A stretch of DNA of 64,000 nt from an uncultured Lachnospiraceae bacterium (GTDB lineage Bacteria > Bacillota > Clostridia > Christensenellales > UBA1242). The notes beneath the pieces are model-generated. The model was not told the origin of the DNA. It made no database searches and worked only from the letters and a program-made list of their open reading frames with translations. The stretch covers positions 24,606-88,605 of the forward strand of contig CAYOOB010000003.1 of assembly GCA_964405555.1 (NCBI GenBank), given 5' to 3'. A program made the position numbers and the translations under genes. Shown in pieces: positions 29,329 to 50,886 of this stretch. Every line of letters starts with the position of its first letter. Within the stretch, counting starts at the first letter, position 1.

Positions 29329-30636
29329 ATGGTTAAACCAATTGTTGCCATAGTGGGCAGAGCAAATGTTGGAAAATCAAGTTTTTTCAATAAAGTTTGC
29401 GGAAAAAGAATAAGTATTGTGGATGATGTTGCGGGGGTCACTCGTGACAGGCTTTATGCTGACACCACTTGGAGTGGAAAAGATTTCACTTTGGTGGATA
29501 CTGGTGGCATAGAGTTGGCAAGCGAGGATGTTTTTCAAAAGGAAATTATTGAGCAAGTGATGCTGGCAATCGAAAATGCTAATGTGATTGTCTTTATGGT
29601 TGACGGAAAAACTGGTGTAACTCAAAGTGATGAAGATGTTGCTAAACTTTTAAGAAAACAAAAAGTTCCAGTTGTGCTGGTTGTGAACAAGCTTGATAAC
29701 TTTGATGTTTCATCCACTTATGAGTTTTACACTCTTGGTTTGGGTGAGCCTATGCCAATTTCTTGCACTCAAAGCAAGGGTATTGGTGATGTGCTGGACA
29801 AGGTGGTGTCATATTTTCCTGAAAATGTGCAAACAGAAGAAGTTGCAGGAATTAAAATTAGTCTTGTGGGCAGACCAAATGTTGGCAAAAGTTCTTTAAT
29901 CAACCGCTTGCTTGGTAAGAAGCGTGTGGTTGTAAGCGATATTGAAGGCACAACAAGAGATAGCGTAATTATTCCTTTTAAGTGCAATAAGAAGATATAT
30001 AATTTAATCGACACTGCAGGGCTTAGGCGTCAGCGTGCAGTGGAAAAGCAGTCGGTGGAAGGTTATTCTGTTTTGCGAAGTATGTCGGCAATTGAAATGA
30101 GTGATGTTGTTTTAATTGTGCTTGATGCCACCAAGGAGGTTGCAGAACAGGATGTTAGAATTGCTGGCTATGTTCATGAGGCTGGAAAACCGAGTGTTGT
30201 GGTTGTTAACAAGTGGGATGAAAAGAGTACCACAAAAGAGAACTTCACAAAAATTTTAAAAGACAAACTTTCTTTTATGTCATATTTTAAAGTGTTGTTT
30301 GTTTCGGCACTGACAGGGCAAGGACTTTCGGAAATTATGAAAACGGTGGATGTTGTCTATGAGAACTCTTCAAGAAGAATATCAACCGGGCTTTTAAACG
30401 ACATTTTGCACGATGCAATTTTAAATTTTGAACCACCTGCAAAGAATGGCAAAAAGTGTAAGATTATGTTTGTGACACAGCCGTCCACAAACCCACCGAG
30501 ATTTGTCTTTTTCTGCAAAGACCCAACTTTAATCAATTTTTCTTATGAAAGATATTTGGAAAATCGACTGCGTGAGAAGGTAGATTTTTCGGGAACACCA
30601 ATAGAATTGGTGTTTAAAGGTAAGGAGGAAGAATGA
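29329..30636 (+). CDS. der: ribosome-associated GTPase Der (EngA)
   Basis: Two tandem G-domains (GRANVGKSSFFN..DTGG..NKLD and GRPNVGKSSLIN..DTAG..NKWD) plus a KH-like C-terminus. Confidence 0.95.
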   Translation: MVKPIVAIVGRANVGKSSFFNKVCGKRISIVDDVAGVTRDRLYADTTWSGKDFTLVDTGGIELASEDVFQKEIIEQVMLAIENANVIVFMVDGKTGVTQSDEDVAKLLRKQKVPVVLVVNKLDNFDVSSTYEFYTLGLGEPMPISCTQSKGIGDVLDKVVSYFPENVQTEEVAGIKISLVGRPNVGKSSLINRLLGKKRVVVSDIEGTTRDSVIIPFKCNKKIYNLIDTAGLRRQRAVEKQSVEGYSVLRSMSAIEMSDVVLIVLDATKEVAEQDVRIAGYVHEAGKPSVVVVNKWDEKSTTKENFTKILKDKLSFMSYFKVLFVSALTGQGLSEIMKTVDVVYENSSRRISTGLLNDILHDAILNFEPPAKNGKKCKIMFVTQPSTNPPRFVFFCKDPTLINFSYERYLENRLREKVDFSGTPIELVFKGKEEE

Positions 30637-31601
30637 CAGTTTATGTAGTTTATATATACTTGGCGGTTGCGTTGATTGTTGGTTATTTTATTGGTAACAT
30701 CAACTTTGCTCGCATATTCTCAAAGAAACTTTCAAATAAAGATATCACAAAGGTTGGTAGTAAAAACCCGGGCACGATGAATGTTCTGCGAACGCAGGGT
30801 TTTGCTAGGGCAATGCTAACACTGGTGTTTGAAGCAATTAAAGTTGGTGTGCCAGCATTGGTGTGTTATTTTCTCTTTGAGCAATTCTTCACAGGGTATG
30901 GACAAATTTCCTATTTTATTTCAAGTTTTGGTGGAATTTTGGGGCATTGTTTTCCTGTTTTCTATAAGTTTAAAGGTGGAAAAGGTGTTGCTTGCACATT
31001 TGGAATGTTTTTGTTTAATCCACAATTTTGGTGGCTGTCATTAATTATGTTTGTTGTTTGTTTTGTGCTGTTTTTGTTCTGCGAATATGGATATATTGTC
31101 AATTTGTTTTTCATATTGGTTATGTCGGTGTACGCAACTTCCTATTTGGTTTTAGAACAATTATTGTGGTGGATAATTATCATTATTATTATTTGGTTGA
31201 ACTTCATTATGATTGTAATCTTGCATAGAGGAAATATAAAACGCACCATACAAGGAACTGAAAATAAGGTAAATCTTCGAGAAAAAATATTTCATAAAAA
31301 GAGATTTTCTTCTGAGGAAGTAAAAGAGGAAAAATCTGAAAATAGCGATAATAATTTGGATGTTATTGAAGTTGAAGGAAAAGAAGTTGAAGAGGATAAA
31401 TCGCAAGTAGAAAAAGAGGGTGTTGAACACAAAAGAAATATTAAAGGTGATAAAAATGACTCCAACCAAGTTGAAATGGGAGTTGATAAGGATGTGAATG
31501 CAACAAATAAGAAAGGTGGTAGGAAAAACTTAAAAGAAGCAAAAGAGCAAACTGAACAGAAGAAAAACGGAGAGGGGGATGACTCGTCGGCAGTTTCTTG
31601 A
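30633..31601 (+). CDS. plsY: glycerol-3-phosphate acyltransferase PlsY with ~110-aa charged C-terminal extension
   Basis: GSKNPGTMNVLRTQG, HCFPVFYKFKGGKGVA and conserved der-plsY synteny. AAGGAGG RBS. The ATG overlaps the der stop. Confidence 0.85.
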   Translation: MTVYVVYIYLAVALIVGYFIGNINFARIFSKKLSNKDITKVGSKNPGTMNVLRTQGFARAMLTLVFEAIKVGVPALVCYFLFEQFFTGYGQISYFISSFGGILGHCFPVFYKFKGGKGVACTFGMFLFNPQFWWLSLIMFVVCFVLFLFCEYGYIVNLFFILVMSVYATSYLVLEQLLWWIIIIIIIWLNFIMIVILHRGNIKRTIQGTENKVNLREKIFHKKRFSSEEVKEEKSENSDNNLDVIEVEGKEVEEDKSQVEKEGVEHKRNIKGDKNDSNQVEMGVDKDVNATNKKGGRKNLKEAKEQTEQKKNGEGDDSSAVS

Positions 31602-31935
31602 TTACATTGAACAGGAGTATGGTGTTTTGCCAGACTATCATTTCAAAGAAGATTTTGATAGTGCAGTGTTTCGTCATAAAGATAACAGAAAATGGTTTGG
31701 ACTTGTGATGCAAGTGTCAAAATATAAACTTGTTGGTAACGAAAAACGGCTTGTGGATGTTCTAAACTTGAAGTGTGAACCATTGCTTAGGCAACCGCTC
31801 ATGCAAAATCGTGGTATTTATGAATGTTACCAGATGAATAAAGTCCATTGGATATCTGTCATTTTGGAAGAAGTTGAATTGGATGAAATTACATCTCTTG
31901 TGGAAATGAGTTTTGATTTAACAAAACACCGCTAA
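31579..31935 (+). CDS. MmcQ/YjbR family DNA-binding protein
   Basis: YIEQEYGVLPDYHFKEDFDSAVFRHKDNRKWFGLVM...VDVLNLKCEP matches the YjbR family pattern. GGAGAGGGGG RBS. It overlaps the plsY 3' end by 23 nt. Confidence 0.7.
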   Translation: MTRRQFLDYIEQEYGVLPDYHFKEDFDSAVFRHKDNRKWFGLVMQVSKYKLVGNEKRLVDVLNLKCEPLLRQPLMQNRGIYECYQMNKVHWISVILEEVELDEITSLVEMSFDLTKHR

Positions 31936-31957
31936 ATTAATAGTGGTGTTTTTTTGT
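31925..31957 (+). terminator. terminator after yjbR-like gene
   Basis: acaccgct / agtggtgt stem (one G-U pair), followed by T7. Confidence 0.6.
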
Positions 31958-32050
31958 TTTTTATGGGATTGAAGTAACAAGTGAGAGTGTTATAGGAAGC
32001 ATTTTTGCAGGTGTTATTGTTTTTATCTTTATATTATGTATTATATTTAT

Positions 32051-32453
32051 GTTCTGTATAACAACAATTTCGTTGACATATCACTTGAAAACTCGTATAA
32101 TGATGATAACTACCAAGAAATGGTAGAACTTGCAACCCTTAATCCATTCCGCTATCGCTCATATTACTACGATAATGAAACAGGTTTGTATTATCTTAAT
32201 TCAAGATACTATAGGGAATTATTGGAGAGACTTAACAATAAATAGCTTAGTTGCAGGCTTACTGTCGACTATTGGGTGGTATTTTGGTAATGCATCGGAA
32301 ATTTTGAAAAATCTTAACTTTAAAAGTTTATTTGCAGCAACTGCAGTTTGGTCAGAATTTATATTTTCCTATCTGACGGATTCAATAAGTACTTTGTTGG
32401 ACTATCTAGGAAAAATTTTTAGAAATTCATTATTTGGAGGCATGAAGTTTTAA
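32051..32453 (+). pseudogene. degenerate orphan Rhs/YD-repeat C-terminal toxin cassette 1 (core tip, then out-of-frame toxin tail)
   Basis: 32051-32212 is a 162-bp homologue of 33028-33189 and encodes ..ELATLNPFRYRSYYYDNETGLYYLNSRYY. Homology stops before the expected DPxxGRF. The frame then terminates, and the remaining ~75 codons continue in another frame (track ORF 32130-32453). Confidence 0.65.
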
Positions 32454-32920
32454 TGATGAAAACAAAATTTTGGAATCATAGACTGGAATTGTTTTTAGGT
32501 GGGACAATAGCCACCTTATTGTCCATAAGCATTTTTATAGTTGGCATAATTCTTACTATAATTAATAAAATTTATTTTCCTTTAATAATCATTGGCATAC
32601 TTATGATAATTATAATAATTTATTCCTATTTTATTGATAAAAGAATGTTGTCAAACGTTATTTTCTCTGATAATGGAATAGAATGTAGATGGCTAAAAAA
32701 GAAAGTTGACTTTGTTAAATGGGAAGAAATAACAGATGTAAAGGCTGTTCCTCACGGAATTGCAATACACAATTTATCTTTTATTGTTGGAAACAAGCAT
32801 ATAAATGTTGGATTATCAAAAAAAATGTATAATACTATAATGCTTATATGTCCTGAAACTAATCTCAAACTTCAAATAAAAAATTTAAAAGAGTTTAAAC
32901 ATCTTCATAAAAATGACTAA
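32453..32920 (+). CDS. putative immunity protein 1 (2-TM N-terminus + small soluble domain)
   Basis: Its ATG overlaps the stop of the toxin-tail frame (TAATG). Architecture and position are those of Rhs/CDI immunity genes. No motif-based identification. Confidence 0.5.
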   Translation: MMKTKFWNHRLELFLGGTIATLLSISIFIVGIILTIINKIYFPLIIIGILMIIIIIYSYFIDKRMLSNVIFSDNGIECRWLKKKVDFVKWEEITDVKAVPHGIAIHNLSFIVGNKHINVGLSKKMYNTIMLICPETNLKLQIKNLKEFKHLHKND

Positions 32921-32923
32921 AAC

Positions 32924-32963
32924 AAAGAGTCTTTTAGTGCACAATACTAAGAGACTCTTTTTA
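32924..32963 (+). terminator. terminator between cassette 1 and cassette 2
   Basis: Perfect 9-bp stem aaagagtct (32924-32932) / agactcttt (32952-32960), followed by a T-run. Confidence 0.6.
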
Positions 32964-33099
32964 TCATCAAATCAGAACACAACTTGTAAAATACATTTAT
33001 GACGCTTGGGGAAATTGCCGAACTTTTGTTCTGTATAATAACAATTTTGTTGACATATCACTTGAAAATGATTATAATGAAGATAACTACCAAGAAAGG

Positions 33100-33912
33100 G
33101 TGGAACTTGCAACATTTAATCCATTCCGCTATCGTTCATATTACTACGATGAAGAAACAAACCTCTACTACTTGAATAGTAGATACTACGACCCAGAGAT
33201 TGGAAGGTTTATCAATGCTGATGACATTACCACATTAGACATCACTCAAATTGCAATAAATGGACTTAATCTCTACGCATACTGCTTAAATAATCCAGTC
33301 AACGAAACTGACGAAGGTGGATATTTCTTAAGTTGGTTACTTGCTTTGCTTATCACTGCGGCTGTTTTTGCAGTTGCTAATACTGCTGTTCAACTAGTTA
33401 CAGATGTAGTAAATTATGCAATTACTGGCAGTTGGGATTCTGGTTGGGAAGATTATGTCGGTGCATTTATTGGTGGCTTCGCAGGGGGTATTACATTCTT
33501 TATATCAGGTTATAATTTAGGATTGGCTTTCGGAGTAATGTCTGGAATTGAAACTTTTTCAACTTCATTGTTAACAAATGCTACCGGAAAAACTAATTCT
33601 TCTTTTGGTTATATTCTTGCAGAATCTTTAGGTTCTTTTGCAATTAGTAGTATTTTGGGAGCATTATTTGGAGGAACTAAAATAGCAGGGATAACAATTG
33701 GAAAAAATAGTGCATTTGCTGTTTTTAAATCAGGGCTAACAAAATTAATAAATGGCACTGCATCAAAAATGTCTTTAAAAGTTATTTCTAAAGGGTTACT
33801 TTCTGTTCTGACATTAAAGTCTTCTGGAACACTATTATCGGGAGCTCTCAGCGGTATTTATGATTGGTTTAAATATCTAATAGGTAACAAATCTGGAGTT
33901 GGTTATGTCTAA
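33100..33912 (+). CDS. orphan Rhs/YD-repeat C-terminal fragment: core tip + glycine-rich hydrophobic toxin domain
   Basis: NPFRYRSYYYDEETNLYYLNSRYYDPEIGRFINADD...NLYAYCLNNPVNETDEGG is the end of the RHS repeat-associated core. The frame is open from 32938 and encodes KYIYDAWGN (a YD repeat), but it has no ATG. The only start is the GTG at 33100, with no obvious RBS. The following ~190 aa are G/A/S-rich hydrophobic segments. Confidence 0.7.
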   Translation: MELATFNPFRYRSYYYDEETNLYYLNSRYYDPEIGRFINADDITTLDITQIAINGLNLYAYCLNNPVNETDEGGYFLSWLLALLITAAVFAVANTAVQLVTDVVNYAITGSWDSGWEDYVGAFIGGFAGGITFFISGYNLGLAFGVMSGIETFSTSLLTNATGKTNSSFGYILAESLGSFAISSILGALFGGTKIAGITIGKNSAFAVFKSGLTKLINGTASKMSLKVISKGLLSVLTLKSSGTLLSGALSGIYDWFKYLIGNKSGVGYV

Positions 33913-34405
33913 AAATAAAGATAATACAATATTAACAATTAGAGCAAAAGGTATAGGTTTTATAATTTTATTTTGTATCTGTTCACTTTTTATAGTTGCA
34001 GCACTTTATCTAATTGTATGTTTCTTTATTCCCTCTGTAACTGATGTGTATCACAATTATATATATTTAATTATATCGGTTATAGCCTTAGCAATTGCCT
34101 CTCTTGAATTAGTTGAAATATTTAGAAAAGGACAGGTAAAATTTATAGAAAATAAATTTGTTTGTAGAGGACAAAATCAAAGAGTCTTTCCTGCAATAGA
34201 ACAAGATTGCAAAGATTTTGTAAGTTATAAATTAACATCAAAATATACTACCCAATGCCTTGAATTTACATTTACTGACGGCAAAAAAGTTTTATTCCAC
34301 ACACCTCAATTTGGGAAAAAACAAGTCATCCAAATCTTAAATGAAATAAAAAAACGTGGTGGTTTTCCAGAACAAGAAGTTAAAATAGAACATTATTATA
34401 TATAA
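33905..34405 (+). CDS. putative immunity protein 2 (2-TM N-terminus + small soluble domain)
   Basis: Its ATG overlaps the toxin stop by 8 nt. Same architecture as 32453-32920 but a different sequence. Confidence 0.5.
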   Translation: MSKNKDNTILTIRAKGIGFIILFCICSLFIVAALYLIVCFFIPSVTDVYHNYIYLIISVIALAIASLELVEIFRKGQVKFIENKFVCRGQNQRVFPAIEQDCKDFVSYKLTSKYTTQCLEFTFTDGKKVLFHTPQFGKKQVIQILNEIKKRGGFPEQEVKIEHYYI

Positions 34406-34406
34406 A

Positions 34407-34432
34407 AGAGAGGTTCCTATCCTCTCTTTTTT
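34407..34432 (+). terminator. terminator after cassette 2
   Basis: agagagg (34407-34413) / cctctct (34421-34427), followed by T6. Confidence 0.65.
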
Positions 34433-34598
34433 ATTCATATCATAAATTTTTTGCTTTTAATACTATTGAACTTATTACTAAATAATTTTCTTTAATATAT
34501 TTAACATCGATTTTATTGTATATATTTTTTTAATTGTTATGTTATATGTTGATATTTTATGTTATATTAAAAAGTCTTTGATAAACTTTTTCATATTT

Positions 34599-34805
34599 TT
34601 AATCTTCCAAACCGAGTAAATAGTCGGCACTAACTTTAAAATATTTTGCAAGAATTATTAGGTTGTCGCTTGTTATGTCGGCTTGTCCGTTTTCCCAACG
34701 ACAAAGTTCAGAACGAGAAAGTCCTGTTACCTTACTTAATTCAACAAAAGACAGGTTTTGCTCTTTTCTTAATTCTTTTAATCTGTCAGCAAAAATTCGT
34801 TTCAT
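34599..34805 (-). CDS. XRE-family HTH transcriptional regulator
   Basis: RLKELRKEQNLSFVELSKVTGLSRSELCRWENGQADITSDNLIILAKYFKVSADYLLGL is a classic HTH_3 domain. The start is either 34805 (MKRIFADRL) or 34847. Confidence 0.8.
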   Translation of the reverse strand: MKRIFADRLKELRKEQNLSFVELSKVTGLSRSELCRWENGQADITSDNLIILAKYFKVSADYLLGLED

Positions 34806-34905
34806 ATAAAAAATTTTATCATAATAAATGTTTAAATAGTTTGACATCTCATATATGAGATGATATTATATATTAACCATAATTAAATTTTATGCGAGGT
34901 GAACA

Positions 34906-35152
34906 ATGAATAAAAAATACCAAAGTTTTTGAAACTATTTTACAGGCATTTGATGAGAGGGAAGTGTTTGAACCTATTGTGATAGGTGATGATGTTGAAG
35001 AGAAAATAAACAAGTTGAAAGTACAGATGTCAGAAAGTGTGTTGGAAGAATTTGATGAATTATTGAGTGAAATTTTTGAACTCTATCGCAAAGAAGAAAT
35101 TGAATTAATTGATTTTGTAATAAATTTTGTTTCCGTCTTATATAGGGGATAG
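34906..35152 (+). pseudogene. small acidic ORF divergent from the XRE gene, split by a frameshift in an A6 run
   Basis: GAGGTG RBS plus the ATG at 34906 opens a frame that stops after 8 codons. Removing one A from the A6 run (34912-34917) joins it to the 34964-35152 frame, giving about 81 aa. Confidence 0.3.
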
Positions 35153-38635: not shown

Positions 38636-38867
38636 TCCATAGAAGTTGAAGTGAAATAAGAAAAAGTTAAAAAAGCAAAGGGTATTAAAATAAGATAACA
38701 GGAAAAATGACATATATTTAACACATAAAATAATTTTAAGACGAAGGTCGTTAAAAAAGAAATGAGTTATGAATATGTCTATAAAAATGCAAAAACAGAT
38801 TGTTTATGCTTGACAAAATTAGACAAAATACCTATAATTTAAACTTGAAGAGGGTATAGGTGAGAAG

Positions 38868-40144: not shown

Positions 40145-40768
40145 TTAATCAATTTTTTTGCCGCTTGTTACGTAGTCTAAAAATTCGTTCATATTTAATC
40201 CAACTTTTGGTTTTTTATATTCATAAATTTCGGTGCTATATTCTTTTATTGGTTTTATACATGATTTAGCATATTCAATTTGTTTAAATTTTTGCCACTC
40301 TATCGCGTTATCAATAGATTTAAACTCATAAATTCCTTTGTTTTTATAGTCAGAATGTTCGAATAGTTTCCAATTTTCATTTTCTTTATAAATAAGATAT
40401 GTATGAGCAAAGCCTGAATTTGATATATCTTCTTGATATGCTGAAATCCAAAACGTTTTAACTGAAAAACCTTTTTTCTCAAACCAATATCTTTCAATTT
40501 CAACTTGGTCATAACAATGTGCAATTCCATCTTTTAATATTTGGATAACAGGGCGTACCCTCCAATTATTACAAGCATCTTGAAATTCTTGTTTTGAACT
40601 ATCATACAACTTGTTGCCATTTTTGTCAATTATGCCATAATGAATATTTTCATCTAAAAATTTCATTAAATCCTCTGGTGTTTTTACATTATCTATATTC
40701 ACTTCTCGGTAATCCTTTTCTTTAAATTTTATTATAAGATTAAAGATAATAATTGTCAAATGATGCAA
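40145..40768 (-). CDS. hypothetical protein, possibly transglutaminase-like/papain-like cysteine peptidase fold
   Basis: Candidate Cys (..DGIAHCYDQVE..), His (..FAHTYLIY..) and Asp (..FEHSD..) appear in the order expected for a transglutaminase-like core. The start is uncertain: 40768 lacks an RBS, while an internal ATG at MKFLDE has AGAGGA upstream. Confidence 0.3.
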   Translation of the reverse strand: MHHLTIIIFNLIIKFKEKDYREVNIDNVKTPEDLMKFLDENIHYGIIDKNGNKLYDSSKQEFQDACNNWRVRPVIQILKDGIAHCYDQVEIERYWFEKKGFSVKTFWISAYQEDISNSGFAHTYLIYKENENWKLFEHSDYKNKGIYEFKSIDNAIEWQKFKQIEYAKSCIKPIKEYSTEIYEYKKPKVGLNMNEFLDYVTSGKKID

Positions 40769-40916
40769 TGAAAAAATTTCGATTAAACATTTTTAATTTA
40801 GTAACATTAATATGGTCTTTTTTATAAAATGTGGTGGTGGGGAGGTCTTTTTGCTTGATTTTAGATTAAAAATGTGTTAAACTTAATGTGCACTAAACTT
40901 TTATATGTTTTTAATT

Positions 40917-40992
40917 GACCTCGTAGTAAAACTGGATATTACGGCCCCCTCCTAAGGGGTTGTTCTGGGTTCGAGTCCCGGCGGGGTCACCA
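40917..40992 (+). tRNA. tRNA-Arg (anticodon CCT)
   Basis: Hand-folded cloverleaf. Acceptor gacctcg/cggggtc, D-stem gtaa/ttac, anticodon stem gcccc/ggggt, loop ctCCTaa. T-arm ctggg-ttcgagt-cccgg, discriminator A, encoded CCA. 76 nt. Confidence 0.85.
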
Positions 40993-40993
40993 A
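40949..40993 (+). repeat. attL: 45-bp direct repeat (3' part of tRNA-Arg from the anticodon loop to CCA+1)
   Basis: ctcctaaggggttgttctgggttcgagtcccggcggggtcaccaa, identical to 58325-58369. Confidence 0.9.
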
Positions 40994-41257
40994 TAGCAAT
41001 ACTTAATGGCTTGATTTTAGTTCTCAACATACTTCTACAAACTCAACCAATTCTAATATCCATATTAGAATTATTAACTTTAATATTGGGGGTGATTAGT
41101 ATAGAGAATAATAAATTGAGAAGAAATATCATCAACACACGCGGAGTATTAAGAATTTATTATCAAGTCTGTTAGGCATTGTTGTGTTGTGTGTTGTGCG
41201 GTGCAAATCCGCAATACTCCAAATATTATCAATGGTAGGCACTTAACCTACCATTTT

Positions 41258-41740
41258 TTATATAAAAATTTTTTCCATAACATCTATTGAGTTGTCAATA
41301 TCTTGACAATAGTGTGTGTAAATTTTTAGTGTTATATCACTGTTGGCGTGTCCTGCAAAATGGGGTTGATATTTAAGCCATGGGTATTTCTTTTCTACTT
41401 CATTTCTTTCGGACTTATTCAGTGTTTCAGGCTTAATAATTTCTCCTATTTGCATATAGCCCCAGATTACATGTTTGCCATTCTTATGATATTTATCATT
41501 GATAATGTCCTCATACCAGCCATAAAACAAAAATAAGTCGCCAACTCCCACTCCATTCTTTTCTAAATGAGCTTGAAAGCCTTTGATTTGCCCTAAACTA
41601 CCTTTAAAGTTTTCGCAATTAAAATAATTTTCTAATTGCGGGTCAAGGTGACAGTGAGTTTGTGGGTCAATGTGACAGTGAGTTTTTAAAAATGGTTTGT
41701 TTTGTTCTTTGACTTCAATAACTCTATTCAAAAATGGCAA
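41258..41740 (-). pseudogene. chimeric ORF: unknown N-terminal domain fused to the last ~32 codons of a tyrosine integrase (integrase remnant next to attL)
   Basis: The C-terminus ..AGHANSDITLKIYTHYCQDIDNSIDVMEKIFI carries the G-H-x(n)-Y-x-H catalytic-Tyr motif. It parallels the tail of the intact Int (..AGHSKALKTSDFYSHFIKNSDIHASEILNKIFE). The upstream 128 aa are unrelated and contain a 24-bp tandem duplication (41641-41688). Confidence 0.6.
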
Positions 41741-42052
41741 GTCACAAAAGGAGTTGCGACCTTGCCGTCATTTATAATTTGTATGAGGTGTAATATGAAT
41801 AAAAATGATGTTGTATTGAGAATAAGTCTAACTCAAATCAAACTCACACATTTAGGGTAATTTTTAGTTAAGGGTAAAAATAGCTATGTGAAAAAAGAGC
41901 ATACAAAAAAACATACTCTTTGGATGTAAGTTATTTTAAATATTTGACATATCTCATTTAAACGAATTATACTATCAACAAATATTTGAAATAACCAAAT
42001 AATTCAACATCTTTTGAAAGTTGTTTGACACATTTTCGGGACGGCGTTATTT

Positions 42053-42068
42053 CTCCTAAGCGGTTGGT
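42053..42068 (+). repeat. degenerate att-like site (14/16 match to the att core)
   Basis: ctcctaagCggttgGt compared with att ctcctaagGggttgTt, in the same orientation as attL/attR. Confidence 0.4.
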
Positions 42069-42387
42069 ATATCCACTTAATCCAGCGAAACGTTGATCTT
42101 CTCCAGAAAGTTGCAAAAAAACACATCTATATGGAGAAAATACATTGTTAAACTGTTAAATTTTGATGCGGTGTTCAAAATATTGGGGCGAATTTCTGAA
42201 ACTTAGGTGAACAAAATGAGAAGTCTTATTCATAAGTATCTTATTATGGAATTTGTGTTTTTACAGTAAATGATTTTTTTTATAAGTGTGTTTGATAAAA
42301 TTTTACAAAAAATTCATTTATTATATAAATTTGGAAGAAAAGTATGCTATAATGGTTTTAGTTTAATAAAGCGATAAAGGAGATTTT

Positions 42388-45300
42388 ATGCAAACGCTTC
42401 TAAATGATTTTTGTTTTTCAGAAGAAAAAGCTGGGCTACTTCTAGTTGATTTACCAACAGGAACTGGGAAAACTCACAATGCGGTTGAGTTTATATATAG
42501 AAATTATGAAAAAGTAAAAAATAAAATAATCTTTATTACTAATTTAAAGAAAAATCTTCCTATTGCCAAACTAAAAGAATTTTTTGAAAAGGACAATAGG
42601 CTTGATGATTTTGAAAAAGATGTATTGTTTATAGATAATAATGTCGATACACTTATAGATCACTTCAATGAAGTTGATAGTGGCAATAAAATCCCTTATG
42701 CTAAGTTTAATAAAAATGGAACCATATTCAATGTAAAACGCTGTATTAAAATTATCAATACATTGAAAGAAAGTTTAAACAATAAGAAACCAACCGATAT
42801 GGATGCATTTGTCTCAAAAGAAAATGCTTATTTTATGATTAATCAAGCAAGAGAAGATTTACGAGACAAATATGAAAAAGAGCTAAGAGAAGTTATTGAA
42901 GAAGTTCTGCGATTTGATAATGAAGGCAAACGAAGGTCTAAAGCACAAAAATTGGATTTAATAAAAAATGATCCAGATTACCAATGGATTTCAGTTCTCT
43001 ATCCAGCAGTAAACACAGACGATAAAAAGATTATATTTATGAGTACTGATAAATTTTTAGTTAGAAACTCTACAATCGTTGAACCATCATATAATATCAT
43101 TGACAACAAATCACTTCTTAACGAATCTATTGTTTTCATTGATGAATTTGATGCCAGCAAAGACATTATATTAAAGAACATCATAAATGAAAGTTTGGAT
43201 ACTAAAGTTAATATCATTGAGCTCTTTCGAATAATATATTCAGGTTTGGAAAACACTTCTTTTTCTAAGTTATTAACAGATGTTTCTGCAACATTAAAAA
43301 ATAAAATTGAGAAAAAAGAAAGAAAATATTACACACCAGATGAAATTATTGGAGAGTTTAGAGCAAGTGCGAAAGAGATAGCAGAAAAATATAATCTCGT
43401 AAATTATCATAAACTTGAGGAATCTGAAAAAGAGAGAGCAAATTTTCTTTTTCAAGACTACAAATTTCACACAATTTTAGGAGATGCTAAAAATTGCGTT
43501 TATCTAGACAATGATGAAGACTTTAAAATTAACTGGATAAAAAGAGCTAATGATATGAACATTTTGGAGAACCAAAATTTGTTTATGCTTTTGCAAGATA
43601 TTAAGTCTTTTTTAGCATATTTTCAAAATGGCATAAAGTTTATTGCAGATAACTATCGTAATCTAAAAAAAGAGCGTAAACAAGAAACAAATAATTTTTC
43701 TTATGAAGCATCAATTAAAACTGCACTTGCGGAATTTGGGATTGAAGGTAAATATTTGAATTATTTGACAAGTCAAATTATGAATACAAGAAAGGCTCGC
43801 TCTTATAAAATTGTTGATCTGAAAAGTGAACTAGACTTCTCGGTTTATGAAAAAGGGTTTAGATTCTACAATTTTATTGACAGTGATACTTTTGATACAC
43901 AGTCAAAAATCAATTTACTATCATTCAATATGTCGCCAGAGAAAATACTAATTTATTTATGTAGCAATGCCAAAGTTGTTGGAATTTCAGCTAGCGGTAC
44001 TCTTGAAACAGTAACTGGAAACTATGACTTGGGATATATAAAAAGGAAACTCGGCAAACTCTTTTACGAGATTGATGAAAAAGAAAAAGGAAGAATCAAT
44101 AATTTTATTATAAAACAACTAGGTAATTATAAAAATGTACAAATAGATATAGATAAATGCCAAATTACTAATAAAAACTACACTGATGTAATGTTAAAAA
44201 TTTTTGACGAACATATAAGTGAAAATATCTTAAACAAAATTTCGGAATATTCTACTGATGATTTTGTTAAAGCGAGATACTGTAAAATTGCTTATGCTAT
44301 TAACGAATTCTTTAGTCGCGGCATTAAGTCTTTTCTCTTTCTAACAAATGTGTCTATGAATAATAGTCTTGAGTTTAACTATAATTGCATAAATTATATT
44401 TTTGATATTTTAAAACCAAATGATTTAAGCAATGTATATTGTTATGCGTTAGAGGGATCTCTCGAAAAATTTGAAAATTTAAAACAAGCAGTAAAAGATA
44501 AACTTAAAAGTGGGAAACGGGTCTTTGTTGTTTCGACTTATCAAACATTAGGTGCCGGTCAAAATTTGCAATACGAGTATGATGACAATTATGAAGGTTT
44601 GTTAGAAACAATAAATGATAATACATATAGCAAAAAGCAAAAAGATTTCGAAGCATTGTTTTTAGATAAGCCTACTAATATGTTTGTTAATATGAATTCC
44701 AATCCAAATGAGGAACAACTTATTAAGTTTATTTATCAAGTAAAATGCTTAGAGGAAACAGGTTATTTCGATGTTGAAGAAGCTACGAGAGAAATTAAAA
44801 AAGGAATTAAAATACTGTACCATGCCTCTTCACAAGGTATTTCAACTCCCAGGTCAAAACATATTTATATGCACACTGCAAAGATAATTTTACAAGCGAT
44901 TGGAAGAATATGCCGTACAAATAATAAGAATAAAAATATATTTATTTCATTTGATTGTCAAATGGAATATGATTTAGCATATTGCAAAAATGAGCTTTTA
45001 AAAAGACCGATGAATTATGAATTGAAAGAGCTTCTAAATAAATGTGAGAATGTAAAAGAGGAAGTTGATAATTCGATTTTCAAAATCAATAATTCAAAAA
45101 TAAAAAAGAATTCAGATAAGATAGATTCTTTGTTGCATTTCAAATCCAATACTGATATTTCAAAATGGGAAGAATTGAGAGATATTGTATTAAAATATCC
45201 TTATGATAATGAAGGAATTCACAATGAATATGACATCTATTGTGAACTTAAAGAACCGAGTAGTTACTATTATTATAATAAGGATCAGAATGGAGAATAT

Positions 45301-45849
45301 AATATAACTTACGAAAAAGTTAATGATTATTGTATATCTGCAGATTTTGCAAATCTAAAAACCTTAATGTCAATCAAAGAAATAAAAACCTATTTTGAGG
45401 ATATGGGATATGCTACAACTCTCGAAAAATCCTCTTATATTTTATTACCTAATGTTTTTACGCGAATTTATCTTGGAGCCTTAGGCGAATCTGTTGGTGA
45501 ATATTTAATTAATAGGTTCCTTAATCAATACGATTTAAAACTTGAAAGAATAAGAGATGTCAATAGATACGAAAAGTATGATTTTGTTTTTGATAATGAT
45601 AAATATGTGGATTTTAAATATTGGAATGGGAATTTTGATAAAGATAGACAGAGAGAAGTTGAAAGATGTATTAGAAAACTAAATGAATGTGATGGAAAAT
45701 ATGGTTTCATAATTAATATACTAAAACCTAAAAATTATGATCCAAAACAATATGTTAGTCCAGATGAAAGGCTTACAATAATTCCATATCTATATGATCC
45801 TGAAACAAAAAAATGGAACCTAAAAGATCTTGAAAAATTGTTACATTAA
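42388..45849 (+). CDS. SF2 helicase (DinG/XPD-like motif set) fused to a C-terminal PD-(D/E)xK-like nuclease domain
   Basis: Motif I DLPTGTGKT (aa ~21), motif II VFIDEFDAS (aa ~250), motif III GISASGTL (aa ~532). Motif V-like VSTYQTLGAGQNL and motif VI LQAIGRICRT (aa ~835). C-terminal GALGESVGEY..YEKYDFVF..YVDFKYW (E...D...DxK, aa ~1030-1080). AAAGGAG RBS. Confidence 0.7.
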   Translation: MQTLLNDFCFSEEKAGLLLVDLPTGTGKTHNAVEFIYRNYEKVKNKIIFITNLKKNLPIAKLKEFFEKDNRLDDFEKDVLFIDNNVDTLIDHFNEVDSGNKIPYAKFNKNGTIFNVKRCIKIINTLKESLNNKKPTDMDAFVSKENAYFMINQAREDLRDKYEKELREVIEEVLRFDNEGKRRSKAQKLDLIKNDPDYQWISVLYPAVNTDDKKIIFMSTDKFLVRNSTIVEPSYNIIDNKSLLNESIVFIDEFDASKDIILKNIINESLDTKVNIIELFRIIYSGLENTSFSKLLTDVSATLKNKIEKKERKYYTPDEIIGEFRASAKEIAEKYNLVNYHKLEESEKERANFLFQDYKFHTILGDAKNCVYLDNDEDFKINWIKRANDMNILENQNLFMLLQDIKSFLAYFQNGIKFIADNYRNLKKERKQETNNFSYEASIKTALAEFGIEGKYLNYLTSQIMNTRKARSYKIVDLKSELDFSVYEKGFRFYNFIDSDTFDTQSKINLLSFNMSPEKILIYLCSNAKVVGISASGTLETVTGNYDLGYIKRKLGKLFYEIDEKEKGRINNFIIKQLGNYKNVQIDIDKCQITNKNYTDVMLKIFDEHISENILNKISEYSTDDFVKARYCKIAYAINEFFSRGIKSFLFLTNVSMNNSLEFNYNCINYIFDILKPNDLSNVYCYALEGSLEKFENLKQAVKDKLKSGKRVFVVSTYQTLGAGQNLQYEYDDNYEGLLETINDNTYSKKQKDFEALFLDKPTNMFVNMNSNPNEEQLIKFIYQVKCLEETGYFDVEEATREIKKGIKILYHASSQGISTPRSKHIYMHTAKIILQAIGRICRTNNKNKNIFISFDCQMEYDLAYCKNELLKRPMNYELKELLNKCENVKEEVDNSIFKINNSKIKKNSDKIDSLLHFKSNTDISKWEELRDIVLKYPYDNEGIHNEYDIYCELKEPSSYYYYNKDQNGEYNITYEKVNDYCISADFANLKTLMSIKEIKTYFEDMGYATTLEKSSYILLPNVFTRIYLGALGESVGEYLINRFLNQYDLKLERIRDVNRYEKYDFVFDNDKYVDFKYWNGNFDKDRQREVERCIRKLNECDGKYGFIINILKPKNYDPKQYVSPDERLTIIPYLYDPETKKWNLKDLEKLLH

Positions 45850-45927
45850 AAATAACTTCTTAGAAAATTTTTATAAATTTTTTGAATTGATATGTTATAA
45901 TTCTAATATATTTAGTGAGGATGAAGC

Positions 45928-46902
45928 ATGCTAAAAACCTTTTTTGATTTCTGTTCTGGAATCGGTGCTGGCAGACTCGGACTTGAGTATTGCGGGTTAA
46001 CTTGTGTTGGTCATTCTGATACAAGCAGGCTGGCAGACACAACATACAGACTGTTACATAATGCATCAACAGACAAAAACTATGGAAATCTTAAGAAACT
46101 TGGAAAAGACAATTTGCCAGATTTTGATTTGCTAATAGCTGGCTTCCCTTGTCAAACTTTTTCAGTAATTGGGAAACAGGCAGGATTTAGTGATGACCGA
46201 GGTCAAATTATTTTTCATTTGTCAAGAATACTTAGAGAAATGCAGCCGAAGTGTTTTATTTTAGAAAATGTAAAAGGATTAGTATTGCATGATAACGGTA
46301 AAACCATCAAAAAAATTATTGAAGAATTGAATAGATCTGGATATTCTGTTGCCTACAAAGTGATTTCAAGTTTGAATTGTGGAGTTCCTCAAATGAGACA
46401 AAGAGTCTACTTTGTTGGCATTAGAAAGGATATTTGTAACAGTATAAATGACTTTGCTTGGCCGAAGGATATAGCAAAACCAGAATTAAACGATTTTTTA
46501 CCAGATCGTAAACAGATACAACCTGAGTTTTTGAACATTTTAATTCATTATTTAAAAAATTCAACAAATAACGGGAAATATACAGTACAAGATTTGCAAT
46601 GCATGAATGGAAAAATTCTAGATACAAGGATGAACGACCTAAGGATCTATGATGGAAAAGTTCCTACTCTCAGGGCTCAACGCGATGGCATATATTATGT
46701 TTTTAATAATACAATTTATCAACTAACAGGATGTGAAGCATTAATATTGCAGGGCTTTTCCCAAGAATATGTGGATAGAGTTAGGGATAAAGTTTCTGAT
46801 AGGCATTTGCTGATGCAAGCAGGGAATGCAATGACGGTAAATGTAATAACATTGATTGGACAATGTTTAATAAATTATCTAAAGAAAAAGGAGAACAAAT
46901 AA
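45928..46902 (+). CDS. DNA (cytosine-5)-methyltransferase, specificity unknown
   Basis: Motif I FFDFCSGIGAGRLG, motif IV GFPCQTFSVIGK, motif VI ENVKGL, motif VIII QMRQRVYFVG, motif X AGNAMTV. Confidence 0.9.
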   Translation: MLKTFFDFCSGIGAGRLGLEYCGLTCVGHSDTSRLADTTYRLLHNASTDKNYGNLKKLGKDNLPDFDLLIAGFPCQTFSVIGKQAGFSDDRGQIIFHLSRILREMQPKCFILENVKGLVLHDNGKTIKKIIEELNRSGYSVAYKVISSLNCGVPQMRQRVYFVGIRKDICNSINDFAWPKDIAKPELNDFLPDRKQIQPEFLNILIHYLKNSTNNGKYTVQDLQCMNGKILDTRMNDLRIYDGKVPTLRAQRDGIYYVFNNTIYQLTGCEALILQGFSQEYVDRVRDKVSDRHLLMQAGNAMTVNVITLIGQCLINYLKKKENK

Positions 46903-47693
46903 TGGCAATTTGGAAAGATTTTGAAATAGAGTGTACTAATTATTTAAATTCACAATTTGGTAAATTCGCAAAATTTACTCATCTTGGAGATAGTGATTCT
47001 ACAGTTGCAGACATAAAAGTAAACACTAAAAATAAAAAAGAGTTTTATATTGAATCGAAACATTCTCCAGCACAGTGTGGACAATTTGTTTTAATTCCAA
47101 ATATTAAAACTCATAAATTTGATTATAGTTCGTTAAATGTAAACAAAATAAATAAGTACTCTTCACAGATAATAGAACATATGAATAAAAATTTTAAAGA
47201 ATTTAAGGAAGCTGGTACAGCTGGCAAAGAAATTAAATTTGAAGGGTGTGAGAATGTCTTCTGTGGTTGGATTATTGATTATCATAAATCGAAAAATGTA
47301 AAATTTTTCATGACCAACAATAATATTATACTTCCGATAGAACAATTTGCAGAATTTTTCACAGTTACAGCTAAATATCGTATAAAACGTAGCGGTTCAT
47401 CTCCTGTTGGGAACTCAAATATTATAAATGTCAAAAATTATGTTAAAGAACATTTCAATATTCAACACATTGAAGTTGTAGGAGATAAAATATTTGTTAA
47501 ATCAAATGAAGAATTACATAATAAAAGATTTGTGATAAACGGATATGAGTATATGTTGTCGAAGCGTGATGGAGTTTACGAAATAAGAAAACTATCTAAT
47601 ACTTTTAACGCGAATGTTATATTTTCTATTGAATTAAAACCTGGAAAGCAGGGGCTAACAGTTTCGCAATTTATTGCTTTATTAAATTTATAA
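46902..47693 (+). CDS. putative type II restriction endonuclease (PD-(D/E)xK-like)
   Basis: Its ATG overlaps the MTase stop (TAATG), which implies translational coupling. The N-terminal FEIEC...VADIKV...EFYIESKH fits E...D...ExK. No family-level identification. Confidence 0.45.
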   Translation: MAIWKDFEIECTNYLNSQFGKFAKFTHLGDSDSTVADIKVNTKNKKEFYIESKHSPAQCGQFVLIPNIKTHKFDYSSLNVNKINKYSSQIIEHMNKNFKEFKEAGTAGKEIKFEGCENVFCGWIIDYHKSKNVKFFMTNNNIILPIEQFAEFFTVTAKYRIKRSGSSPVGNSNIINVKNYVKEHFNIQHIEVVGDKIFVKSNEELHNKRFVINGYEYMLSKRDGVYEIRKLSNTFNANVIFSIELKPGKQGLTVSQFIALLNL

Positions 47694-47981
47694 TATACTC
47701 TCCAAAAAGCTGATATACTTTTTAACCGCAAATTTATATGTGGATAGATAATATTTACCAATTGGTAGGTCTCCAACAAGGAGGTTTGCCATTTTTTCAT
47801 TTTGTCCAGAATTTTTGAATAGATCAAGGAGGCTTTCACATTTGTCTTTTCTATATTCTTCATCTATGTCACAATCTTTTATAGCATGTTCAATACGTTT
47901 TATCCTGGAAACATAATCGCTACAAAGTTTTTTGGGAGTGTTGTTTTGTTTTAAATAACGAACAAAGTCAAACTCAAGCAT
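47688..47981 (-). CDS. 97-aa protein translationally coupled to the M.HhaI-like gene; function unknown
   Basis: Its ATG overlaps the MTase TGA (ATGCTTGA). Its 3' end overlaps the convergent 46902-47693 gene by 6 nt. Confidence 0.5.
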   Translation of the reverse strand: MLEFDFVRYLKQNNTPKKLCSDYVSRIKRIEHAIKDCDIDEEYRKDKCESLLDLFKNSGQNEKMANLLVGDLPIGKYYLSTYKFAVKKYISFLESIL

Positions 47982-49489: not shown

Positions 49490-49494
49490 TAAAG

Positions 49495-50630: not shown

Positions 50631-50656
50631 TTGGAAACAGCACACTGGAGGTATCA

Positions 50657-50875: not shown

Positions 50876-50886
50876 GGAGAAAAGTT

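What the first reader, a model, noticed from the sequence alone, without database searches (positions are those of the whole stretch)
32051..34405. Array of two orphan Rhs/YD C-terminal toxin-immunity cassettes with no parent rhs gene
Two 162-bp homologous segments (32051-32212 and 33028-33189) encode the tip of the RHS repeat-associated core (NPFRYRSYYYD.ET.LYYLNSRYY). Cassette 2 continues into DPEIGRFINADD...NLYAYCLNNPVNETDEGG and a full toxin domain. It has no ATG, only a GTG with no obvious RBS, and its frame extends upstream into a YD repeat (KYIYDAWGN). Cassette 1 breaks exactly after SRYY and shifts frame, which leaves a toxin tail but an intact immunity-like gene. Orphan cassettes normally trail a full-length rhs/wapA gene and are thought to be swapped in by recombination through this homology. 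Here the array starts right after the terminator of a housekeeping-type operon (der-plsY-yjbR), so the parent must be elsewhere or lost. The canonical DPxGL self-cleavage motif is replaced by DEGGY.
Basis: partly seen in the sequence, partly recalled or inferred. Interest (0 to 1): 0.6.

Follow-up and report, generated by a model that had tools for sequence, protein, structure and literature searches.

The report
Parentless Rhs toxin-immunity cassettes with own promoters
Two leftover tail-ends of a bacterial contact-weapon (Rhs) gene, each still paired with its antidote gene and each apparently carrying its own promoter and terminator, were inserted between two housekeeping genes of a gut Clostridium; this is a known kind of element, and it most likely now serves mainly to make the antidotes.

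Summary
There are two 165-nt direct repeats (32047-32211 and 33024-33188, 84% identical), and both encode the tip of the RHS repeat-associated core. Cassette 2 continues into an intact helical, glycine-zipper-rich toxin domain followed by a two-TM immunity gene. Cassette 1 lost 166 toxin codons but kept its immunity gene.

The orphan interpretation holds. Both toxin types sit on full-length 1,700-2,100-aa Rhs proteins elsewhere, and each toxin-immunity pairing recurs in other loci.

Three refinements:
- The window has no Rhs shell. Four close relatives have yjbR directly next to spoIVA, so the 3.2-kb block is an insertion rather than a decayed full locus.
- Parentless orphans and the DExG motif are both common in this clade.
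Equivalent promoters are enriched and synonymously conserved in related Rhs tips, and several orphans begin at the -35 hexamer.

Each cassette therefore reads as promoter, tip, toxin, immunity gene, terminator. Internal rhs promoters are already known from Salmonella (Starsta 2020), so I class this as a new variant of a known kind. Expression and function are untested.

The parts
31926..35151 (+). Lineage-specific ~3.2-kb inserted block between yjbR and spoIVA. It holds two Rhs cassettes, an HTH gene and a small ORF.
   Evidence: In blastn of the window against syntenic relative L082, homology stops at 31925 and resumes at 35152. L082, L086, L088/L089 and L090 have only 85-173 nt between yjbR and spoIVA.
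32047..32212 (+). Cassette 1: remnant of the rhs core tip (repeat copy 1), cut after SRYY.
   Evidence: TIGR03696 positions 13-44 only, 26.3 bits.
32073..32101 (+). Embedded promoter P1: TTGACA-17-TATAAT, 12 of 12 matches.
   Evidence: Only 6 perfect sites occur in 128 kb against 0.16 expected. The element is conserved in related tips.
32214..32453 (+). Cassette 1: out-of-frame tail (last ~75 residues) of a T1-type toxin. 166 codons are missing.
   Evidence: tblastn and alignment to the C-termini of the L023 orphans and the L023 and L004 full-length Rhs.
32453..32920 (+). Immunity gene 1 (155 aa, hydrophobic N-terminal membrane segment, read as two TM helices). Its ATG overlaps the stop of the toxin tail (TAATG).
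   Evidence: 35-38% identical, essentially full length, to the genes directly after T1-type toxins in L004 and L023. Hydropathy. No Pfam hit.
32924..32960 (+). Intrinsic terminator of cassette 1.
   Evidence: 16-bp stem, -19 kcal/mol, z -6.9, followed by UUUUUAUC.
32962..33321 (+). Cassette 2: last YD repeat (KYIYDAWGN), linker and complete core tip up to the DEGG cleavage-type motif. Repeat copy 2 is 33024-33188.
   Evidence: TIGR03696 70.7 bits. PDB Rhs tips.
33050..33078 (+). Embedded promoter P2: TTGACA-17-TATAAT, 12 of 12 matches.
33322..33912 (+). Cassette 2: intact T2-type toxin domain (about 195 aa).
   Evidence: 50-59% identical to the C-termini of full-length Rhs proteins P0244-P0246, P0250 and P0251. 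The AlphaFold model is helical with pLDDT above 90 over residues 80-180. One TM segment and 10 GxxxG motifs. No Pfam, PADLOC or PDB fold match.
33905..34405 (+). Immunity gene 2 (166 aa, two N-terminal TM helices). GGAG lies 6 nt before the ATG, and the gene overlaps the toxin stop by 8 nt.
   Evidence: 37-54% identical to the genes directly after T2-type toxins in L014, L020 and L010. Hydropathy.
34404..34430 (+). Intrinsic terminator of cassette 2.
   Evidence: -13.2 kcal/mol, z -4.75, followed by a U-run.
34599..34847 (-). Xre-type HTH_3 gene (82 aa) inside the inserted block.
   Evidence: Pfam HTH_3, E 4e-14. HTH_3 relatives (31-46% identical) lie upstream of full-length rhs genes in several loci, for example L004, L006, L013, L027 and L063. 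The family is generic, so the link to rhs is unproven.
34906..35152 (+). Small ORF inside the inserted block. It is interrupted at a T5 run, and removing one T gives 81 aa. It has its own 11/12 promoter (34841-34869) and a GAGGTGA ribosome-binding site.
   Evidence: No family hit.

Best explanation
The region is a ~3.2-kb insertion into the yjbR-spoIVA intergenic space of a low-GC, spore-forming gut Clostridium. It carries two tandem, 5'-truncated Rhs C-terminal cassettes.

Each cassette has the anatomy of a self-contained transcription unit, in this order:
- a consensus sigma-70/sigma-A promoter, written into the remnant of the rhs core in the linker between the last YD repeat and the NPFRYR tip;
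- the core tip;
- a toxin-coding stretch;
- an immunity gene for a small two-TM membrane protein, overlapping or abutting the toxin stop;
- an intrinsic terminator.

Cassette 2 keeps an intact helical, glycine-zipper-rich toxin domain, presumably membrane-inserting. It has no usable start codon or export part. Cassette 1 has lost 166 toxin codons but kept its promoter, immunity gene and terminator.

The most likely present function is constitutive, parent-independent expression of the two immunity proteins. These would protect the cell against T1- and T2-type Rhs toxins delivered by neighbours, or by any full-length Rhs of its own. Cassette 2 could additionally be a silent spare warhead, joined to a full-length rhs by recombination through the tip homology.

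Shown: the anatomy, the homologies, the synteny, and the sequence-level conservation of the promoter.
Inferred: transcription from the promoters, the immunity function, the toxin activity, and how the block arrived.
For: Identity as Rhs cassettes
- TIGR03696 and PDB Rhs tips match.
- T1 tail and imm1 are homologous to the C-terminus plus downstream gene of full-length Rhs in L004 and L023. The T2 plus imm2 pair recurs in L014, L020 and L010.
- T2 sits at the C-terminus of 1,787-2,125-aa Rhs proteins.

Insertion
- An empty site is seen in four relatives.

Promoter
- A 12/12 consensus is present in both repeats.
- Only 6 such sites occur in the window (both strands) against 0.16 in dinucleotide shuffles. 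Three of the other four lie just upstream of ORF starts.
- Among 135 related Rhs tips, 36% have a promoter scoring at least 11/12 within 220 nt upstream, against 3.3% of random 250-nt windows.
- The hexamers are conserved while the spacer is not: TTG and TA..T are 100% conserved, the spacer 49%.
- Synonymous codons are fixed to the consensus in the window's own sequence class: Asp = GAC 18/18 against 30% background, Val = GTT 25/25 against 44%, Thr = ACT 13/13 against 34%.
- A second sequence class has the element at another position: GAC 32/36 (p 1e-8), Val = GTG 25/29 (p 1e-16), which creates the TG of an extended -10.
- Orphans exist whose reading frame is broken around the element, yet the hexamers are kept (L007:11465, L035). 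In others, homology starts at the -35 hexamer right after the previous terminator (L018:2997, L020:1673, L042, L044, L056).

Unit structure
- No terminator lies between promoter and immunity gene, and there is a strong terminator after each immunity gene.
- Immunity ORFs are intact with ribosome-binding sites.

Precedent
- Salmonella rhs main and orphan genes carry mapped internal promoters in the conserved core end that transcribe the CT plus immunity genes (PMC7043789).
Against: - There are no expression data of any kind. The promoter is a consensus match plus comparative evidence, not a mapped start site.
- The element is not universal. 23 of 135 related tips have nothing scoring at least 9/12 in the scanned window, and a full-length Rhs carrying the T2 toxin (L092) has only a weak match.
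- The related sequences are not phylogenetically independent, so the codon p-values are inflated.
- The boundary statistic is noisy: 19 of 52 orphans start within -60 to +15 nt of the -35 hexamer.
- Immunity and toxin activities are untested, and both immunity proteins lack any family assignment.
- The rest of the source genome could not be inspected. It is therefore unknown whether a full-length rhs exists elsewhere, and the 'spare warhead' part is open.
Confidence: 0.6

Rival explanations
1. Silent toxin reservoir. The cassettes are unexpressed spare parts that matter only when homologous recombination through the ~165-nt tip homology fuses them to a full-length rhs elsewhere in the genome.
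For: The T2 toxin is intact and lacks a start codon. In related loci the same cassette types trail full-length rhs genes in classical arrays, for example L004, L023 and L010. Recombinational activation of an orphan is documented in Salmonella (PMC3967940).
Against: No parent lies within 64 kb. Recombination with a distant parent would invert or delete chromosome between the two sites. The two tips are only 84% identical to each other over 165 nt, against 95% over 522 bp in the Salmonella case. Cassette 1 has no usable toxin yet keeps its promoter, immunity gene and terminator. This model is not exclusive of the best explanation.
Confidence: 0.3
2. Internal toxin-antitoxin module, as shown for Salmonella rhs. 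The embedded promoter gives an mRNA from which a truncated toxin (from GTG 33100) and the immunity protein are both made inside the cell. The pair then acts as an addictive or growth-modulating TA pair.
For: There is a promoter 22 nt upstream of the in-frame GTG 33100, and of ATG 32120 in cassette 1. The Salmonella P2A/P2B transcripts yield toxic protein from a weak CTG start (PMC7043789). An addictive module would also explain survival of a parentless block.
Against: The only Shine-Dalgarno-like sequence (AAGAAAGG) abuts GTG 33100 with no spacer. No conserved in-frame start follows the promoter in relatives, and some have stop codons there (L007:11465). Cassette 1 cannot make a toxin.
Confidence: 0.15
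3. Pure relics. The block is decaying debris of a former rhs locus or of a transferred fragment, with no current function. On this view the promoter-like hexamers are only by-products of conserved amino acids.
For: Cassette 1's toxin is gutted and frame-shifted, and cassette 2 lacks a start codon. The neighbouring small ORF is frame-shifted. There is no expression evidence.
Against: Both immunity ORFs, both terminators and both 12/12 promoters are intact, although the repeats have diverged to 84%. Synonymous positions of the hexamers are fixed across diverged relatives, and the hexamers persist where the frame is broken. T2 aligns full length to functional-looking homologues.
Confidence: 0.12

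Closest known systems
Orphan rhs-CT/rhsI modules of Enterobacteriaceae (Salmonella Typhimurium STM0292; Poole 2011 PMC3150448; Koskiniemi 2014 PMC3967940)
   Same: A 5'-truncated fragment keeps the end of the conserved core, has no translation start or export part, carries a polymorphic toxin after the cleavage motif, and has a cognate immunity gene directly downstream. The same toxins occur on full-length Rhs in other strains.
   Different: Here the modules are not downstream of a main rhs gene. They form an isolated insertion between housekeeping genes. The host is a Gram-positive-type Clostridium with no T6SS expected. The retained core homology is much shorter (165 nt at 84%, against 522 bp at 95%).
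Internal P2A/P2B promoters of Salmonella rhs main and orphan genes, with type II TA-like behaviour (Starsta et al. 2020, PMC7043789)
   Same: A sigma-70-type promoter is written into the coding sequence of the conserved core end and is present in both full-length and orphan copies. It is positioned to transcribe the toxin tip, toxin and immunity gene independently of the full-length gene.
   Different: The position is not homologous. In Salmonella the hexamers lie in the YFDDETGLHYN tip, with the TSS 89 nt before the PxxxxDPxGL-coding sequence. Here they lie in the linker about 40 nt upstream of NPFRYR, roughly 225 nt before the DEGG codons (33078 to 33310). A second Clostridial class has the element in the last YD repeat. 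Nothing here is experimentally mapped, and an internal toxin start is doubtful.
Standalone toxin cassettes and polyimmunity loci of polymorphic toxin systems (Zhang et al. 2012, PMC3482391)
   Same: Toxin-immunity cassettes are arranged as T-I pairs that recombine with the 3' end of a full toxin gene. Genomes can hold more cassettes and immunity genes than active toxins.
   Different: Polyimmunity loci are defined as immunity genes uninterrupted by toxin cassettes. This block still has toxin sequence before each immunity gene.
Membrane-depolarising glycine-zipper toxins with membrane immunity proteins: Rhs effector Tse5, LXG toxin EsxX (PMC12744356), ionophoric CdiA-CTs (PMC11630599)
   Same: A hydrophobic, GxxxG-rich helical C-terminal domain is paired with a small integral-membrane immunity protein.
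   Different: No detectable sequence or fold relationship was found. The activity is inferred from composition and a predicted structure only.

Membership tests
Orphan Rhs C-terminal toxin/immunity module | Fragment homologous to the 3' end of the rhs core (RHS repeat-associated core, TIGR03696) | tested here: met
   Cassette 2 scores 70.7 bits against a cutoff of 32.5. Cassette 1 scores 26.3 bits because it is truncated at model position 44 of 76. PDB Rhs/Tc tips align.
Orphan Rhs C-terminal toxin/immunity module | Lacks the YD shell, N-terminal region and translation start of a full-length gene | tested here: met
   The frame opens at 32938 with no start before GTG 33100. Only the last YD repeat is present. 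tblastn with 1,765-aa and 1,961-aa parents finds nothing else in the window.
Orphan Rhs C-terminal toxin/immunity module | Polymorphic toxin domain after the DPxG-type autoproteolysis motif, and the same domain found on full-length Rhs elsewhere | tested here: met
   The motif is TDEGG|Y. DExG is found in 33 of the related tips surveyed, against 57 DPxG. T2 sits on P0244-P0246, P0250 and P0251. T1 sits on the L004 and L023 parents.
Orphan Rhs C-terminal toxin/immunity module | Small immunity gene immediately downstream, with the linkage conserved | tested here: met
   imm1 homologues follow T1 toxins in L004 and L023. imm2 homologues follow T2 toxins in L014, L020 and L010.
Orphan Rhs C-terminal toxin/immunity module | [quoted passage not shown] | tested here: not met
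   There is no shell homology in 64 kb, and relatives have an empty site. This is usual for the family but not universal: about a dozen related orphan loci also lack a parent within up to 10 kb.
Orphan Rhs C-terminal toxin/immunity module | The toxin inhibits growth and is neutralised specifically by the adjacent immunity protein | not testable with these tools
   Needs expression of 33322-33909 with and without 33905-34405.
Internally transcribed Rhs-CT/RhsI unit (Salmonella P2 type, Starsta 2020) | Sigma-70 promoter inside the conserved core end, shared by main and orphan copies | tested here: met
   Met by sequence only. Both cassettes have a 12/12 consensus. The element is enriched, positionally clustered and synonymously conserved in full-length and orphan relatives. 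Its position differs from that in Salmonella.
Internally transcribed Rhs-CT/RhsI unit (Salmonella P2 type, Starsta 2020) | Mapped transcription start and measurable CT/immunity transcript | not testable with these tools
   No transcriptome for this uncultured organism was available.
Internally transcribed Rhs-CT/RhsI unit (Salmonella P2 type, Starsta 2020) | Internal translation start giving a toxic intracellular protein (TA behaviour) | tested here: inconclusive
   The in-frame GTG 33100 and ATG 32120 lie about 20 nt after the -10 hexamer, but without a properly spaced Shine-Dalgarno sequence. No conserved start is seen in relatives.
Polyimmunity locus / acquired interbacterial defence island | Array of immunity genes not interrupted by toxin cassettes, often with a recombinase | tested here: not met
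   Toxin sequence precedes each immunity gene. The nearest integrase (50887-52278) is 16 kb away, in a separate island.

The most novel reading that the evidence does not exclude
In gut Clostridia, Rhs C-terminal cassettes are autonomous, dispersible genetic units rather than passive debris.

On this reading, a sigma-A promoter is maintained by selection inside the coding sequence of the last YD repeat or linker of full-length genes. It lies at non-homologous positions in at least two sequence classes, and at a third position in Salmonella. After displacement, orphans are trimmed down to exactly this promoter. The resulting promoter-tip-toxin-immunity-terminator units spread to new chromosomal sites, such as yjbR|spoIVA here, where they act as stand-alone immunity (or addiction) genes without any parent rhs.
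Probability: 0.45. Interest if true: 0.55.

Novelty: new variant of a known kind. Interest (0 to 1): 0.4.

Why it matters
Orphan toxin cassettes are usually treated as silent spare parts tied to a parent gene. If Clostridial Rhs cassettes carry their own promoter inside the coding sequence, two things follow.
- Immunity to neighbours' Rhs toxins can be inherited, kept and moved independently of the weapon. That changes how toxin and immunity repertoires in gut Firmicutes should be counted and interpreted.
- It would extend the Salmonella finding of internal rhs promoters to a distant phylum at a different position, which suggests repeated selection for the same solution.

The locus also flags a sizeable, unannotated family of helical glycine-zipper toxin domains (233 clusters at 50% identity) with membrane immunity partners.

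The step beyond what is already known is moderate and is not demonstrated experimentally here.

Tried and rejected
Searches that led nowhere
- Exact look-ups of the window's own proteins found no contig on record. Cluster look-up says only NCBI, contig 93,577 bp.
- The source genome is not among the GTDB species representatives: the best tip identity was 72%. The rest of the genome therefore could not be searched for a parent.
- A metagenome scan with the shared 20-mer GTTGACATATCACTTGAAAA gave one chance hit, in a Tex-like gene.
- Pfam, NCBIfam and PADLOC gave nothing for the toxin domains or immunity proteins.
- imm1 has only two close homologues other than itself in the word-based search.
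- There was no similarity to plasmids or phages and no Rfam family above threshold.
- The 110 nt between the yjbR terminator and cassette 1 has no homologue in any fetched locus. The 81-aa ORF has none either.

Ideas considered and dropped
- The T2 toxin exists only in orphans. All of the top 120 word-based hits were 545 aa or shorter, but the exhaustive search found it on full-length Rhs proteins.
- DEGGY is an aberrant cleavage site (one search shows it is a common variant).
- The promoter hexamers merely reflect conserved amino acids (and the broken-frame cases, argue against this).
- The HTH gene is a relic of the regulatory module upstream of rhs parents. HTH_3 relatives do sit there in several loci, but the similarity is generic, so this is left open.
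Full report
**Observation**

The described features are real and lie at the stated places.
- The repeat finder gives one 165-nt direct repeat, 32047-32211 against 33024-33188, 84% identical.
- Both copies translate to VLYNNNFVDISLEN.YN.DNYQE.VELAT.NPFRYRSYYYD.ET.LYYLNSRYY.
- The frame of cassette 2 is open from 32938 and reads QIRTQLVKYIYDAWGN... It has no ATG, GTG or TTG before GTG 33100, and it runs to 33912.
- Cassette 2 matches the NCBIfam RHS repeat-associated core domain at 70.7 bits (cutoff 32.5), and it matches the C-terminal tips of solved Rhs/Tc proteins.
- Cassette 1 matches only model positions 13-44, because it stops being Rhs-like after SRYY at 32212.
- The 64-kb window holds no other Rhs shell sequence on either strand. 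A tblastn with two full-length relatives finds only the two tips and the toxin tail of cassette 1. The two largest ORFs in the window are a DdmD-like helicase and an Avs4-like STAND NTPase.

**What the cassettes are**

A scan of species-representative genomes with the 119-aa tip returned 76 loci. Most are uncultured gut Clostridia or Christensenella-like MAGs.
- In 29 loci the tip ends a full-length open frame with at least 900 codons upstream. In 40 it is a short orphan.
- Classical arrays exist. For example, L004 has a 1,765-aa Rhs, then a 153-aa gene, a 323-aa orphan, a 158-aa gene and a 408-aa orphan.

Cassette 1:
- Its out-of-frame tail (32214-32453) is homologous to the last ~75 residues of the toxins of the L023 orphans and of the full-length Rhs of L023 and L004.
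- ORF 32453-32920 is 35-38% identical, essentially end to end, to the genes directly downstream of those toxins.
- Intact relatives have 166 codons between SRYY and (N/S)YW that are missing here.

Cassette 2:
- Its toxin domain recurs in L004, L010, L014 and L020. ORF 33905-34405 is homologous to the genes that follow it there.
- An exhaustive HMMER search with the toxin domain alone finds 233 clusters. Among them are full-length Rhs proteins of 1,787-2,125 aa with the domain at the extreme C-terminus, 50-59% identical.

Both cassettes are therefore genuine displaced Rhs warhead-plus-antidote modules. The toxin and immunity assignments rest on conserved linkage, not on any assay.

**The toxin and immunity proteins**
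- The T2 domain has a hydrophobic helix right after the cleavage-type motif, 10 GxxxG motifs and 12% glycine.
- AlphaFold models it as a helical bundle with pLDDT above 90 over residues 80-180.
- No Pfam, PADLOC or PDB fold match was found.
- Both immunity proteins have a hydrophobic N-terminal membrane region (two TM helices in imm2) and a C-terminal part of roughly 90 residues. They are unrelated to each other in sequence.
- By analogy with Tse5, EsxX and the ionophoric CdiA-CTs, a membrane-inserting, depolarising toxin blocked in the membrane by its partner is the likeliest activity. This is inference.

1. DEGGY is not an oddity. Among related tips the motif reads DPxG 57 times, DExG 33 times and DSxG 15 times. 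DExG also occurs in full-length genes such as the L004 parent, TDENGY.
2. A missing parent is common in this clade. About a dozen orphan loci have no large YD ORF in up to 10 kb upstream. One is L002, on a 649-kb contig between housekeeping genes.
3. The parent was probably never at this site. Four relatives whose SpoIVA is 86-90% identical (L082, L086, L088/L089, L090) share the feoAB-der-plsY-yjbR-spoIVA order, with only 85-173 nt between yjbR and spoIVA. DNA homology with L082 stops at window 31925 and resumes at 35152. The cassettes, an Xre-type HTH gene (34599-34847, minus strand) and a small frame-shifted ORF (34906-35152) therefore form a 3.2-kb lineage-specific insertion. No phage or plasmid relative and no recombinase were found at the site.

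**The feature that was missed**

Both repeat copies contain a perfect TTGACA-17-TATAAT, at 32073-32101 and 33050-33078, on the coding strand.
- The whole window has six such sites on both strands, against 0.16 expected from dinucleotide shuffles. Three of the other four lie 7-30 nt upstream of ORF starts.
- Among 135 Rhs tips in the related loci, 36% have a promoter scoring at least 11/12 within 220 nt upstream of NPFRYR, against 3.3% of random windows. At 10/12 or better the figures are 62% against 13%.

Two classes appear.
- *Class a.* In the window's closest relatives the element ends 37-40 nt before the N codon, inside a variable linker (NFV[DA].-5 aa-Y[NT]). TTG of the -35 hexamer and TA..T of the -10 hexamer are invariant, while the 17-nt spacer is 49% conserved. 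Synonymous choices are fixed to the consensus: GAC 18/18 against 30% background, GTT 25/25 against 44%, ACT 13/13 against 34%.
- *Class b.* In a higher-GC class the element is TTGACA-18-TGnTA(C/A/G)AAT, inside the last YD repeat (ILD.NGN.VV.Y.YDAWGN). It shows GAC 32/36, GTA 31/36 and GTG 25/29, where GTG supplies the TG of the extended -10.

Several orphans keep the hexamers although the reading frame around them is broken (L007:11465; L035, where the spacer is non-coding). In several others, homology to Rhs begins at the -35 hexamer directly after the previous cassette's terminator (L018:2997, L020:1673, L042, L044, L056). In a noisy BLAST-based measure, 19 of 52 orphans begin within -60 to +15 nt of the -35 hexamer. 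The sequences are related to one another, so the p-values overstate independence. The pattern is nevertheless hard to explain by protein constraint alone.

**Resulting model**

Each cassette reads as promoter, tip, toxin (or toxin stump), immunity gene, terminator.
- No terminator-like site lies between promoter and immunity gene.
- Strong hairpins with U-runs follow each immunity gene: 32924-32960 at -19 kcal/mol, and 34404-34430 at -13.2 kcal/mol.
- imm2 has GGAG 6 nt before its ATG and overlaps the toxin stop by 8 nt. imm1's ATG overlaps the stop of the toxin tail (TAATG).
- Cassette 1 lost most of its toxin yet kept its promoter, immunity gene and terminator. This points to immunity expression as the maintained function.
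- Whether the T2 toxin is translated from GTG 33100 is doubtful, because the Shine-Dalgarno-like AAGAAAGG abuts the GTG and no conserved start exists in relatives.

**Comparison with what is known**
- Orphan rhs-CT/rhsI modules, and their activation by recombination, are established in Salmonella (PMC3967940). Standalone cassettes are a general property of polymorphic toxin systems (PMC3482391).
- Internal promoters in the conserved core end of the Salmonella main and orphan rhs genes, transcribing toxin plus immunity, have been mapped and shown to act like TA modules (PMC7043789).
- The present element works like that but sits at a non-homologous position: about 40 nt upstream of NPFRYR rather than inside YFDDETGLHYN. 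It is also in Firmicutes, and it is only predicted.

I therefore rate the finding as a new variant of a known kind, of moderate interest.

**Limits**
- The source genome outside the window could not be reached, so the existence of a parent elsewhere is unknown.
- There are no expression or activity data.
- The mechanism of insertion is unresolved. The only hint is a possible microhomology (TGTTCTG against TGTTTCTG) at the left junction.

Noticed in passing
window 34599-35152: Inside the same inserted block there is a divergent pair: an Xre-type HTH_3 gene (minus strand) and a small plus-strand ORF. The ORF has a strong ribosome-binding site and an 11/12 promoter with TG (34841-34869). It is interrupted at a T5 run (34926-34930), and removing one T restores an 81-aa ORF with no family hit. 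This may be a sequencing error or a real frameshift.
   Followed up: partly
window 32130-32453: In cassette 1 a TTG at 32130 is in the +1 frame relative to the tip and lies 29 nt after the -10 hexamer. It opens a 107-aa ORF that, because of the deletion's frame shift, runs through the toxin tail and stops at the TAATG overlapping the imm1 start. This could give translational coupling to imm1. The equivalent TTG in cassette 2 (33107) gives only about 22 aa.
   Followed up: no
window 40145-57188: There is a defence and mobile island downstream: an Nmad3-domain protein (41258-41740, minus strand), a DdmD-like helicase (42388-45849), two C5 cytosine methyltransferases (45928-46902; 47974-49083, minus strand), a tyrosine integrase (50887-52278), and a 1,607-aa SMEK-N/Avs4-like STAND NTPase (52365-57188).
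   Followed up: partly
L084 8556-9851; L085 8584-9851: In another relative (SpoIVA 86% identical) the space just upstream of spoIVA holds a tRNA gene, a 200-aa protein with a weak barnase-type ribonuclease hit, and one or two copies of a 108-109-aa gene that could be its inhibitor. The position upstream of spoIVA thus seems to collect toxin/antidote-like modules in different lineages.
   Followed up: no
P0003, P0006, P0027-P0029, P0055: A class of 'long orphans' of about 490-545 aa all begin at nearly the same place in the shell (...YKYDSLSRL(I/V)REDNKPLNKT(T/V)TWEYDAGGNI...). This suggests a second preferred truncation or recombination point, or another internal start.
   Followed up: no
window 33322-33700 versus PDB 8fjp_A: The mosquito salivary protein SGS1 (an Rhs/YD protein) aligns not only over the core tip but on into the hydrophobic segment after the cleavage motif (query 54-202, E 7e-7).
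   Followed up: no
window 32036-32050 versus L082 ~9900-9912: The left junction of the insertion shows possible microhomology. Cassette 1's Rhs homology starts with TGTTCTG, where the empty site of the relative reads TGTTTCTG. This hints at illegitimate recombination, but it is weak.
   Followed up: partly
window 30633-31601: PlsY is 322 aa, with a roughly 120-residue Lys/Glu-rich low-complexity C-terminal extension that overlaps the start of yjbR. Relatives vary in length (258-318 aa).
   Followed up: no
window 16666-16694 (-), 38810-38838 (+), 40731-40759 (-), 58606-58634 (+): These are the only other perfect TTGACA-17-TATAAT sites in the window. Three lie 7-30 nt upstream of ORF starts. The fourth lies within the first codons of ORF 40145-40768 as listed, whose true start is probably further in.
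   Followed up: partly
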